A stretch of DNA of 64,000 bases from an uncultured Candidatus Saccharibacteria bacterium (GTDB lineage Bacteria; Patescibacteriota; Minisyncoccia; Phycocordibacterales; JAKFXT01), in the NCBI GenBank assembly GCA_964385825.1, contig CAYLPX010000001.1, forward strand, positions 173,797 through 237,796. Direction: 5' to 3'. The notes below the pieces were generated by a model. It was not told where the DNA came from. It was given only the letters and a program-made list of their open reading frames with translations, and ran no database searches. Shown piece after piece: positions 58,721-59,908 of this stretch (within the stretch, counting starts at the first letter, position 1; every line of letters starts with the position of its first letter). The translations under genes were made by a program, and so were the position numbers.

Positions 58721-59149
58721 ATGGAAAGGCTTTGGCTCGGCATCGCAATCATCGTCGTACTGGGGTTCTTGGTGTGGAAGCTTGTCTTCCCATCAGGGAG
58801 GAAGCCTCAACTCACGGTGGAAAAGGCGCGGGAACTGCTCCACTACCCGCTCAGCAAAGTCTCACAAAACAGCCTCTTGCCCCCGAACGATGGGACGATA
58901 ACCCAACTCATGGGAAGACTCAAGGTTGGGCATCTCGAACAAAGAATTGGACCTTACCGAATTGAAGTTTTCCGGGTAAGGGCCGAGGACTATAGCGGTG
59001 AAATAAGCTTTCAGATGATGAGCGGCGTCCTTACCGCCAGCCTTCTTGCAACACCTTCGGGCTTCGAGGACTTCGCGCAGGAACTTGCCCGGCTAGTGCA
59101 TCAGGCTGAGGAGCTGCACGGTCAATATGGAACTCTTGCCGCAGCATGA
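58721..59149 (+). CDS. GC-rich cassette L: hypothetical 142-aa protein with N-terminal TM (SD GGAGGGAGGG)
   Basis: ORF track. Terminator gcccccaccagggggc + TTTTT at 59173-59195. Confidence 0.55.
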   Translation: MERLWLGIAIIVVLGFLVWKLVFPSGRKPQLTVEKARELLHYPLSKVSQNSLLPPNDGTITQLMGRLKVGHLEQRIGPYRIEVFRVRAEDYSGEISFQMMSGVLTASLLATPSGFEDFAQELARLVHQAEELHGQYGTLAAA

Positions 59150-59366
59150 CCCCCGCGGGATCGCCCGCTTAAGGCCCCCACCAGGGGGCTTTTTCACACA
59201 ATACCCGCTCATAGAGAGCGGGTATTTGCTGCTGTTTTACCAATTTCTATATTATGCAATATTACTTGACTTTTGTATATAGATATGATACTATACACAT
59301 CAGGTGCGGAGGGGTCTTCGCACAACTGTCCGCCGGCTAACCCCGGCCTTATTAAGGAGAAACGTC

Positions 59367-59480
59367 ATGCAAGCCATTGCCCAGTTTTTCGGGATTTCGA
59401 TCCCGCTGATTGCCTGCGGTATGGTGCTGCTGATCGCCGGAATGAAGCGCGTCGAGGCGCTTCGCCCGATCCGTCGCTAG
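59367..59480 (+). CDS. GC-rich cassette M: 37-aa single-TM cationic peptide (type I toxin-like)
   Basis: Careful translation gives MQAIAQFFGISIPLIACGMVLLIAGMKRVEALRPIRR. SD AAGGAG at 59354-59359. Strong terminator 59499-59540. Confidence 0.45.
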   Translation: MQAIAQFFGISIPLIACGMVLLIAGMKRVEALRPIRR

Positions 59481-59591
59481 GCCTCACAGCCAGCGGCACC
59501 CCCCTCCCTCGCAGTTTGCGGGCGGAGGGGTTGTTTTTTCCAGGAGGCGTTGTATTGTTATCTTAGATCTTTTTTTCCCGGGGGGGATAAA

Positions 59592-59822
59592 ATGGCAATA
59601 GTTCTGAGAGGTCCGCTTTGGCTCACACAGATGGTAGAGCGTGTGGTAGAGCGTGAGCACAAATGGGTTGATAGGGTGCAAGGCGAAATCTGCTTTGCGC
59701 TCGGGGTCCCGGCCCTGTCGGTCAGGACTGTGGCGATGATGGTCTCGCTCTTCAACAAGGTCCTAGTGCCAACCACAATCGCCGTGGTGGCAAGCCTCCC
59801 CTTCTATGGAGGAGGTACATGA
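59592..59822 (+). CDS. GC-rich cassette N: hypothetical 76-aa protein
   Basis: In-frame ATG within ORF 59550..59822, preceded by a G-rich SD. Product MAIVLRGPLWLTQMVERVVEREHKWVDRVQGEICFALGVPALSVRTVAMMVSLFNKVLVPTTIAVVASLPFYGGGT. Followed by perfect hairpin 59832-59859. Confidence 0.45.
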   Translation: MAIVLRGPLWLTQMVERVVEREHKWVDRVQGEICFALGVPALSVRTVAMMVSLFNKVLVPTTIAVVASLPFYGGGT

Positions 59823-59908
59823 CTCAGCTCTGTCCCTCCGTCGCTTGCGACGGAGGGACTAAACATTTTCGTACTTGTAAAAATCTTACTTTCTGTAAAT
59901 ATCACCCT

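What the first reader, a model, noticed from the sequence alone, without database searches (positions are those of the whole stretch)
58721..59860. Three consecutive GC-rich cassettes (L, M, N) immediately downstream of the tRNA-Leu integration scar
A 142-aa N-terminally anchored protein, a 37-aa cationic TM peptide, and a 76-aa protein follow the tRNA-Leu DR. Each has its own SD and its own strong terminator (59173-59195, 59499-59540, 59832-59859). They occupy the space before miaA. Their position next to an att-like repeat makes this the best candidate in the window for cargo delivered by a tRNA-targeting integrative element.
Basis: partly seen in the sequence, partly recalled or inferred. 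Interest (0 to 1): 0.55.

Follow-up and report, generated by a model that had tools for sequence, protein, structure and literature searches.

The report
Orphan small membrane-protein genes beside tRNA-Leu
Three small GC-rich genes of unknown function sit between a leucine tRNA gene and miaA in a tiny-genome (Patescibacteria) bacterium. They are an old, fast-changing, clade-specific insert rather than fresh cargo of an integrating element, and the "att-like" repeat beside them belongs to a separate, recurrent RNA structure that trails tRNA genes.

Summary
ORFs L (58721-59149, 142 aa), M (59367-59480, 37 aa) and N (59592-59822, 76 aa) each have a Shine-Dalgarno sequence and a stable terminator hairpin. 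Their composition is coding-type, with GC3 0.60-0.76 against 0.22-0.37 in neighbouring genes.

All three are ORFans: every sequence, profile, structure and DNA search returned only the same strain.

In many Paceibacteria relatives tRNA-Leu(CAA) directly abuts miaA, so this is an insertion into a variable interval. It is not recent or strain-specific. Two sister species (MiaA 77% and 72% identical) carry the same frame: the tRNA trailer, the M promoter (28/28 nt identical in one sister species) and the M terminator are conserved. The ORFs between these blocks cannot be aligned, yet they keep the same size and membrane topology.

There is no integrase, no third repeat, and no cargo-bracketing repeats. 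The 19-nt direct repeat brackets only a 107-nt segment. That segment carries a conserved three-way-junction RNA motif found after many other tRNAs, with or without cargo.

Best reading: an ancestral islet of rapidly evolving small membrane proteins. M may be a membrane-active, toxin-like peptide, but this is weakly supported. Interest is low to moderate. The tRNA-trailing element is the more unusual feature.

The parts
58421..58503 (+). tRNA-Leu(CAA). Its last 19 nt (58485-58503) are copy 1 of the direct repeat.
   Evidence: ARAGORN; Rfam tRNA, 55.6 bits.
58534..58629 (+). tRNA-trailing structured element (core type A), a three-way junction. P1 5' strand (X') at 58537-58548 is complementary to the tRNA's T-loop plus T-stem 3' strand. 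P1 3' strand plus the acceptor 3' strand is direct-repeat copy 2 (58611-58629).
   Evidence: 16 of 32 pairs compensatory; an invariant G-U on this strand; covariance model, 101 bits; this copy was in the training set. The aligned tRNA-plus-trailer block is 93.5% identical to L011, against 74-79% for the flanking genes.
58721..59149 (+). ORF L, 142 aa. N-terminal hydrophobic anchor (residues 6-22), then about 115 aa with no recognisable domain. ORFan.
   Evidence: GC1/2/3 is 0.63/0.40/0.60.
59171..59195 (+). Intrinsic terminator of L (GC stem followed by UUUUU).
   Evidence: -16.1 kcal/mol, z -3.75.
59203..59232 (+). Second hairpin. It is homologous to the terminator of a 44-aa gene that is present in L011 and L091 but lost here.
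   Evidence: -15.1 kcal/mol; the 44-aa ORFs of L011 and L091 are clearly homologous to each other.
59254..59294 (+). M promoter: AT-rich upstream tract, -35 TTGACT (59266-59271), 17-nt spacer, TG-extended -10 TACTAT (59289-59294). The 28-mer at 59254-59281 is identical in L011, and its core is conserved in L091.
59367..59480 (+). ORF M, 37 aa. Single TM-like segment with a cationic tail (RPIRR). The counterpart in L011 is 38 aa and ends RPIIGRR. In L091 it is truncated to 22 aa.
   Evidence: GC3 0.76 here, 0.90 in L011; mRNA fold z -3.2.
59496..59540 (+). Intrinsic terminator of M. It is conserved in L011 (83% over the aligned block 59494-59558).
   Evidence: -24 kcal/mol.
59531..59558 (+). 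Candidate N promoter: -35 TTGTTT inside the M terminator tail, 16-nt spacer, -10 TATTGT. The same arrangement is present in L011 (TATAGT) and L091 (TATTTT).
   Evidence: Read from the alignment. This is an inference and is not a hit of the scan.
59592..59822 (+). ORF N, 76 aa, with a hydrophobic C-terminal half. ORFan. The positional counterparts (67 aa in L011, 73 aa in L091) also have C-terminal TM segments.
   Evidence: GC1/2/3 is 0.62/0.43/0.64.
59832..59859 (+). Perfect 13-bp hairpin after N, with only a weak U tract after it.
   Evidence: I19; -25.1 kcal/mol, z -6.4.
59909..60778 (+). miaA (tRNA isopentenyltransferase). It forms the right boundary of the islet.
   Evidence: IPPT, 2.4e-63.

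Best explanation
L, M and N are three separately transcribed, lineage-restricted genes for small membrane proteins.

**Origin.** They form an accessory islet that entered the normally empty tRNA-Leu(CAA)-miaA spacer once, in the common ancestor of a small Paceibacteria clade: this organism plus the species represented by L011 and L091. Since then the islet has been inherited vertically while turning over quickly.
- Expression signals are under purifying selection. These are the M promoter with its upstream AT tract, the M terminator, and the N promoter.
- The peptide sequences have diverged, or been replaced, beyond recognition. What remains is length, membrane topology and GC-rich third codon positions.
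- Individual genes decay. The 44-aa gene was lost here, and M is truncated in L091.

**Inferred function.**
- L is anchored by its N-terminal helix.
- M is a strongly transcribed 37-aa single-pass peptide with an Arg-rich tail and a heavily folded mRNA. Its most plausible role is a membrane-active, type-I-toxin-like or regulatory peptide.
- N is anchored by its C-terminal hydrophobic half.

**The repeat.** The neighbouring 19-nt repeat is not the scar of the event that delivered these genes. It is the closing-helix and 3' strand of a separate structured element that trails tRNA genes in this group.

**Shown:** gene structure, orphan status, synteny, conserved regulatory blocks, absence of att bracketing.
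**Inferred:** single ancestral insertion, translation, membrane insertion, any toxicity.
For: - Gene signals and coding-type composition.
- No homologue anywhere except the same strain. No family, structure, phage or plasmid match.
- Ancestral tRNA-Leu/miaA adjacency in relatives.
- Same layout in L011 and L091.
- BLASTN identity to L011: tRNA+trailer 93.5%, M promoter block 80% (28/28 core), M terminator block 83%, with nothing across the ORFs.
- Positional counterparts share length and the position of the hydrophobic segment but show no significant similarity.
- M- and N-type ORFs keep high GC3 in L011 (0.90 and 0.72).
- The M mRNA folds better than all 200 shuffles here (z -3.2) and better than 198 of 200 in L011.
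- No recombinase within 10 kb. No extra repeat copies.
Against: - There is no direct evidence of transcription or translation.
- The population sample is clonal (100% identity over the islet in 10 contigs), and sister sequences cannot be aligned, so no dN/dS test was possible.
- Unalignable ORFs between conserved flanks fit cassette replacement as well as fast divergence.
- High GC3 persisting in three species whose synonymous sites are near saturation is not explained by one ancient import.
- The AF2 model of L is unreliable (pLDDT 45).
- For the toxin idea, no antisense promoter or antitoxin RNA was found. The predicted SD/3'-tail pairing is A-U-rich and is not reproduced in L011. M is truncated in L091 without obvious consequence.
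Confidence: 0.6

Rival explanations
1. First reader's model. L-M-N is cargo recently delivered by an integrative element that targets the 3' end of tRNA-Leu, and the direct repeat is its att scar.
For: - Atypical GC3.
- The interval is ancestrally empty and variable.
- Mobile-element genes occupy the same interval in other lineages: a serine recombinase in L044, an RT in L043 and a LAGLIDADG protein in L055.
- The repeat runs from the T-loop to the tRNA 3' end, as att sites of tRNA-integrating elements do (the comparison to att sites rests on general knowledge).
Against: - The cargo lies outside the repeat pair.
- There is no third copy and no integrase within 10 kb.
- The same layout occurs in two other species with 72-77% MiaA identity.
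- The repeat-bounded segment is a conserved structured element that also follows tRNAs with nothing else inserted after them.
Confidence: 0.1
2. Cassette replacement. The conserved promoter and terminator blocks act as recombination anchors. Unrelated small-ORF alleles are swapped in from a shared, GC-rich pool, so the counterparts in sister species are not orthologues.
For: - Sharp switches occur between conserved blocks (80-93% identity) and unalignable ORFs.
- GC3 stays high in each species.
- Assemblies of other samples break inside or next to the islet, at about 59306-59325, 59511, 59696, 59766 and 59785.
Against: - No member of such a pool was found among 5.8 billion protein clusters, the 1.84 billion representatives searched for L, viral contigs, phages or plasmids.
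- The M N-termini (MQAIAQF, MELIKFV, MELLQFA) and C-termini (RPIRR, RPIIGRR) look like divergent orthologues.
- There is no recombination machinery and there are no attC-like sites.
Confidence: 0.15
3. The ORFs are not genes. The GC-rich stretch encodes structured non-coding RNAs, or is decaying foreign DNA in which stop-poor sequence gives chance ORFs.
For: - No homologues exist.
- A 142-codon ORF appears in 3% of shuffles.
- The M and N transcripts are more structured than shuffles.
- The L091 version of the M unit has only a 22-codon ORF.
Against: - GC1>GC2<GC3 periodicity occurs in exactly the SD-preceded frames and not in the overlapping frames. GC3 is 0.90 in L011 M.
- SD sequences are present in the counterparts.
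- Hydrophobic segments keep their positions.
- There is no Rfam match even at E<10.
- The first 300 nt of the L region is no more structured than shuffles (z +0.65).
Confidence: 0.1

Closest known systems
tRNA-adjacent genomic islets and integration hot spots (genomic islands at tRNA genes)
   Same: Foreign-looking composition. Location directly 3' of a tRNA gene, in an interval that is empty in many relatives and holds unrelated genes in others. A tRNA 3'-end direct repeat nearby.
   Different: No integrase. The repeats do not bracket the genes. The islet is shared by three species and only 1.2 kb long, and its expression signals are better conserved than its coding sequence.
Type I toxin-antitoxin loci (Hok/Sok, TisB/IstR, Fst, AapA/IsoA type)
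   Same: M is under 60 aa, has one hydrophobic helix and a basic tail, forms its own strongly promoted monocistronic unit, and has a highly folded mRNA with a 5'-proximal hairpin. It sits in an intergenic, tRNA-adjacent position and is poorly conserved in sequence.
   Different: No antisense or overlapping small-RNA gene was found. Toxicity is untested. There is no match to any known toxin family. One sister species carries a truncated copy.
Small orphan membrane proteins of Patescibacteria/CPR genomes (lineage-specific hypothetical proteins)
   Same: Short, hydrophobic, no detectable homologues, fast evolving. Several other GC-rich orphan ORFs occur in the same window (559-948 and 44973-45971).
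   Different: Here the orphans sit in a frame of conserved promoters and terminators shared across species. This pattern has not, to my knowledge, been described.
Integron gene-cassette arrays
   Same: Consecutive short single-gene units of foreign composition.
   Different: Each unit has its own promoter and terminator. There are no attC-type imperfect inverted repeats at the unit boundaries, no intI gene and no attI site.

Membership tests
tRNA-targeting integrative element / genomic island | Integrase or recombinase gene at one end of the element | tested here: not met
   Precomputed Pfam annotation of all called genes within 10 kb on both sides shows none. L, M and N have no recombinase domain.
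tRNA-targeting integrative element / genomic island | Direct repeats of the tRNA 3' part bracketing the cargo (attL/attR) | tested here: not met
   There are only two copies, 126 nt apart start to start, both upstream of L. No bracketing repeat was found in any expanded relative.
tRNA-targeting integrative element / genomic island | Presence/absence polymorphism among close relatives (an empty site) | tested here: inconclusive
   The site is empty in relatives with MiaA identity of 63% or less. It is occupied, with the same frame, in the two closest species. All same-species contigs are identical.
tRNA-targeting integrative element / genomic island | Composition unlike the host genome | tested here: met
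   GC3 is 0.60-0.76 against 0.22-0.37.
Type I toxin-antitoxin system | Small (<60 aa) hydrophobic peptide with one TM helix | tested here: met
   M is 37 aa, its best 17-residue Kyte-Doolittle window scores 2.48 at residues 7-23, and its net charge is +4.
Type I toxin-antitoxin system | Cis- or trans-encoded antisense RNA antitoxin overlapping the toxin mRNA | tested here: not met
   The only minus-strand promoter-like site (59279-59251) points away from M. The M terminator is not bidirectional (read from the sequence). The absence of a consensus promoter is weak negative evidence.
Type I toxin-antitoxin system | Structured toxin mRNA that occludes the ribosome-binding site | tested here: inconclusive
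   The window mRNA has z -3.2, with the SD paired to the 3' U-tail in the MFE structure. The L011 fold leaves the SD differently paired.
Type I toxin-antitoxin system | Growth arrest or membrane damage on expression | not testable with these tools
   Needs an expression experiment.
Integron cassette array | attC recombination sites at cassette ends, an intI integrase, and promoterless cassettes | tested here: not met
   The unit boundaries are ordinary terminators plus promoters. No integrase is present.
Any Rfam RNA family (for the tRNA trailer and for the M unit) | Covariance-model match at or near the gathering score | tested here: not met
   Only the tRNAs pass. The best other hits score 12-22 bits against thresholds of 40-86.

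The most novel reading that the evidence does not exclude
The 'att-like' repeat is the 3' half of an undescribed family of ~100-170-nt structured RNAs, or miniature mobile elements, that trail tRNA genes in Paceibacteria. Their closing helix is templated on the T-arm of whichever tRNA they follow: a complement of the T-loop plus T-stem, then a conserved core, then an exact copy of the tRNA 3' end. In this reading these elements, rather than classical integrase att sites, mark and perhaps create the boundary where variable DNA such as the L-M-N islet accumulates. The islet's conserved promoter/terminator frame with unrelated ORFs would then reflect ongoing cassette replacement.
Probability: 0.15. 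Interest if true: 0.7.

Novelty: new member of a known kind. Interest (0 to 1): 0.3.

Why it matters
The islet itself adds little beyond another set of orphan small membrane proteins in a candidate-phyla-radiation genome. Two aspects could matter.

1. Promoters and terminators are better conserved than the peptides they express. This inverts the usual pattern. It makes the locus a compact test case for distinguishing extreme diversifying evolution from allele replacement of small membrane proteins in episymbiotic bacteria.

2. The analysis shows that a repeat resembling an integration scar is part of a recurrent, covarying RNA structure attached to tRNA genes. That matters for anyone calling genomic islands from tRNA 3'-end repeats in these genomes. 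It also points to an unclassified RNA or mobile element.

Tried and rejected
**Searches that returned nothing useful**
- Homology searches for L, M and N returned only the same strain: word-index searches and a full HMMER scan of L against 1.84 billion representatives.
- The one extra hit, P0003, is a eukaryotic coiled-coil repeat protein and is spurious.
- Pfam, PHROGs, PADLOC, NCBIfam and PDB sequence searches gave nothing above noise.
- Viral contig scans with L and N, and BLASTN of the islet against phage and plasmid collections, found no match.
- AlphaFold2 of L without an alignment gave pLDDT 45. It was too poor for a fold search, so none was run.
- An exact search for the M promoter 22-mer in metagenome contigs found nothing.
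- An exact search for the trailer hairpin motif in viral contigs found nothing.

**Tests that were not possible or not informative**
- A strain-level SNP analysis for dN/dS was impossible because the contigs carrying the islet are 100% identical over it.
- Pairwise tests of positional counterparts (BLASTP and Smith-Waterman against shuffles) were not significant, apart from the 44-aa pair and a marginal N versus L091-73 result (p = 0.024).

**Ideas considered and dropped**
- A phage lysis cassette (holin plus spanins): there is no endolysin, and on my understanding this phylum has no outer membrane.
- An integron array: there are no attC sites and no intI gene.
- A known ncRNA (6S, SRP, RNase P or tmRNA) hiding in the GC-rich stretch: there is no Rfam signal.
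- The trailer as a general 5' leader of the downstream gene: a same-strand ORF follows within 100 nt in only 13 of 25 cases, several of them short ORFs of doubtful reality.

**Literature**
- Searches found no description of the trailer.

Full report
**What is there**

The window comes from a Patescibacteria (class Paceibacteria) genome. The MiaA-based genome scan returns only such MAGs.

tRNA-Leu(CAA) lies at 58421-58503. Three ORFs follow on the same strand:
- L: 58721-59149, 142 aa.
- M: 59367-59480, 37 aa.
- N: 59592-59822, 76 aa.

miaA then starts at 59909. Each ORF has a purine-rich ribosome-binding site and is followed by a stable hairpin of -16.1, -24 and -25.1 kcal/mol. The first two hairpins carry U tracts.

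GC is 0.54-0.60 against a window mean of 0.44. In the called frames GC1>GC2<GC3, with GC3 of 0.60, 0.76 and 0.64. Neighbouring genes have GC3 of 0.22-0.37, and the overlapping alternative frames lack the pattern.

**They are orphans**

L, M and N have no Pfam, PHROG, PADLOC, NCBIfam or PDB relatives.
- The 5.8-billion-cluster search returns only the same proteins from the same organism.
- An exhaustive HMMER scan of L against 1.84 billion representatives adds only a spurious eukaryotic coiled-coil protein.
- No viral contig encodes a relative of L or N, and no phage or plasmid record matches the islet DNA.
- AF2 of L is unreliable (pLDDT 45).
- The exact L protein is encoded on 11 contigs from one sample series. 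The 10 that were retrieved are 100% identical over the islet.

**Is it an insertion?**

Yes, but an old one. Among 80 related genomes, tRNA-Leu(CAA) lies on the same strand 0-250 nt upstream of miaA in about 19. The ancestral spacer is therefore nearly empty.

The spacer is expanded to 0.6-4.3 kb in a dozen lineages, with unrelated content: a large serine recombinase, a reverse transcriptase, a LAGLIDADG protein, a peroxiredoxin, a CDF transporter, MurA and an SMR protein. It is a variable interval.

The two closest relatives are L011 (MiaA 77%) and L091 (72%). Both have the same architecture as the window. BLASTN between the window and L011 aligns these blocks:

| Block | Window coordinates | Identity |
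|---|---|---|
| parB | – | 79% |
| tRNA-Leu plus trailer | – | 93.5% |
| Block containing the M promoter | 59197-59294 | 80% (28-mer 59254-59281 identical) |
| M terminator block | 59494-59558 | 83% |
| miaA | – | 74% |

Nothing aligns across L, M or N.

Positional counterparts nevertheless match in length and in the position of the hydrophobic segment:
- 142 versus 146 aa, N-terminal anchor at residues 6-22 in both.
- 37 versus 38 aa, single TM-like segment, net charge +4 versus +3.
- 76 versus 67 and 73 aa, C-terminal hydrophobic segment.

Similarity is not significant. M shows only weak end similarity: MQAIAQF versus MELIKFV and MELLQFA at the N-terminus, and RPIRR versus RPIIGRR at the C-terminus.

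The islet is also decaying:
- A 44-aa gene shared by L011 and L091 is absent here. Only its terminator remains, at 59203-59222.
- M is cut down to 22 codons in L091.

**The 'att-like' repeat**

The 19-nt repeat is real, but the two copies enclose only 107 nt, and L-M-N lie outside that pair.
- No third copy exists in the window.
- None of the expanded relatives has cargo-bracketing repeats.
- No recombinase is called within 10 kb.

All three tRNAs of the window share one layout. So do 23 of 180 distinct tRNAs (Leu, Trp, Tyr) in relatives. After the tRNA the order is:
1. A terminator-like hairpin.
2. A complement of that tRNA's own T-loop and T-stem 3' strand.
3. A conserved core.
4. An exact copy of the tRNA 3' end.

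For the commoner core type, RNAalifold predicts a three-way junction. Sixteen of 32 pairs change on both sides, and a G-U pair is invariant on the tRNA-sense strand. This argues for an RNA-level structure.

A covariance model gives 30 hits at about 21 bits or more among the loci held. Twenty-two of these lie 28-260 nt downstream of a same-strand tRNA.
- In L012 and L065 the element sits between tRNA-Leu and miaA with nothing else.
- L022 has a copy with a closing helix that is not tRNA-derived, just upstream of miaA.
- Within L052, two copies have identical cores but tRNA-specific arms.
- Tandem copies occur.

No Rfam family matches, and I found no description in the literature. The repeat is therefore part of a recurrent element, not the scar of the event that brought in L-M-N.

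**How the islet most likely works**

- The M unit has a near-consensus promoter (TTGACT, 17 nt, TG-extended TACTAT, AT-rich upstream tract) that is conserved across three species.
- M has a 5'-proximal hairpin in each species, a strong SD, and a 37-aa TM peptide with an Arg-rich tail.
- The M mRNA folds better than all 200 shuffles (z -3.2; z -2.9 in L011).
- N appears to have its own conserved promoter embedded in the M terminator tail (read from the alignment).

I read the three genes as independently expressed small membrane proteins. M is the candidate membrane-active, type-I-toxin-like or regulatory peptide, but that part is weak. No antisense gene was found, and M is dispensable in L091.

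**What remains unexplained**

M- and N-type ORFs keep high GC3 in all three species, up to 0.90 in L011 M, although synonymous sites of the flanking genes are near saturation. Possible causes are selection for folded mRNA, repeated replacement from a GC-rich pool, or a local bias.

Other GC-rich orphan ORFs occur elsewhere in the window, so the phenomenon is not confined to this tRNA.

**Verdict**

It is not recent, it is not bracketed by att sites, and the repeat belongs to something else.
- The islet is a new member of a known kind (tRNA-adjacent orphan islet). Interest is about 0.3.
- The tRNA-trailing element deserves its own follow-up.

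Noticed in passing
window 58534-58629 (+), 62204-62303 (-), 42640-42816 (-); also L011, L012, L020, L021, L028, L032, L037, L038, L043-L045, L052, L059, L063, L065, L099, L115, L118, L137, L141: A recurrent structured element follows tRNA genes (Leu, Trp, Tyr, Gln). Its order is: complement of that tRNA's T-loop/T-stem, a conserved core (two types), then an exact 9-20-nt copy of the tRNA 3' end. Type A folds as a three-way junction with many compensatory changes and an invariant G-U on the tRNA strand. There is no Rfam match. Tandem copies occur, and within one genome the cores can be identical while the arms are tRNA-specific. 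Its function or mobility is unknown.
   Followed up: partly
window 58144-58430 (+): An 80-aa stand-alone GIY-YIG nuclease gene (58188-58430) overlaps the tRNA-Leu 5' end by 10 nt and is preceded by a perfect 24-nt palindrome (58156-58179). It is an insertion relative to L011, which has 49 nt there. Contigs from other samples of the same strain start at 58144, 58154, 58447 and 58449, close to its boundaries. This hints at presence/absence variation in the population.
   Followed up: partly
window 559-948 (+), 44973-45512 (-), 45516-45971 (-), 46066-46773 (-): These are further GC-rich islands (GC 0.55-0.61) holding ORFs. Three have no Pfam match, and one is a phosphoribosyltransferase-domain protein. 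GC-rich orphan genes are scattered through this genome and are not confined to the tRNA-Leu locus.
   Followed up: partly
L011-L090 loci; window 58421-62436: In many Paceibacteria, miaA is flanked by genes for tRNA-Leu(CAA), tRNA-Trp(CCA) and often tRNA-Tyr(GTA). These tRNAs read UNN codons and so are expected MiaA substrates (from general knowledge of MiaA, not tested here). This is a conserved enzyme-substrate gene neighbourhood.
   Followed up: no
L043 4836-5786; L044 4148-5317; L055 5099-5677: In other lineages the same tRNA-Leu-miaA interval holds a reverse transcriptase (RVT_1), a large serine recombinase and a LAGLIDADG-domain protein, respectively. None is bracketed by detectable tRNA 3'-end repeats.
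   Followed up: partly
L175 (JGI 3300045348) 1719-2120: One contig carries the identical MiaA protein but has a different gene downstream: a 134-aa ORF about 265 nt after miaA, in place of the DUF1761 gene 62 nt after it. This suggests strain variation on the other side of miaA.
   Followed up: no
window 59819-59911: Some gene callers extend miaA to a 319-aa form that starts at 59819, overlaps the N stop codon and runs through the N terminator hairpin. Alignment with relatives supports the 289-aa form starting at 59909.
   Followed up: yes
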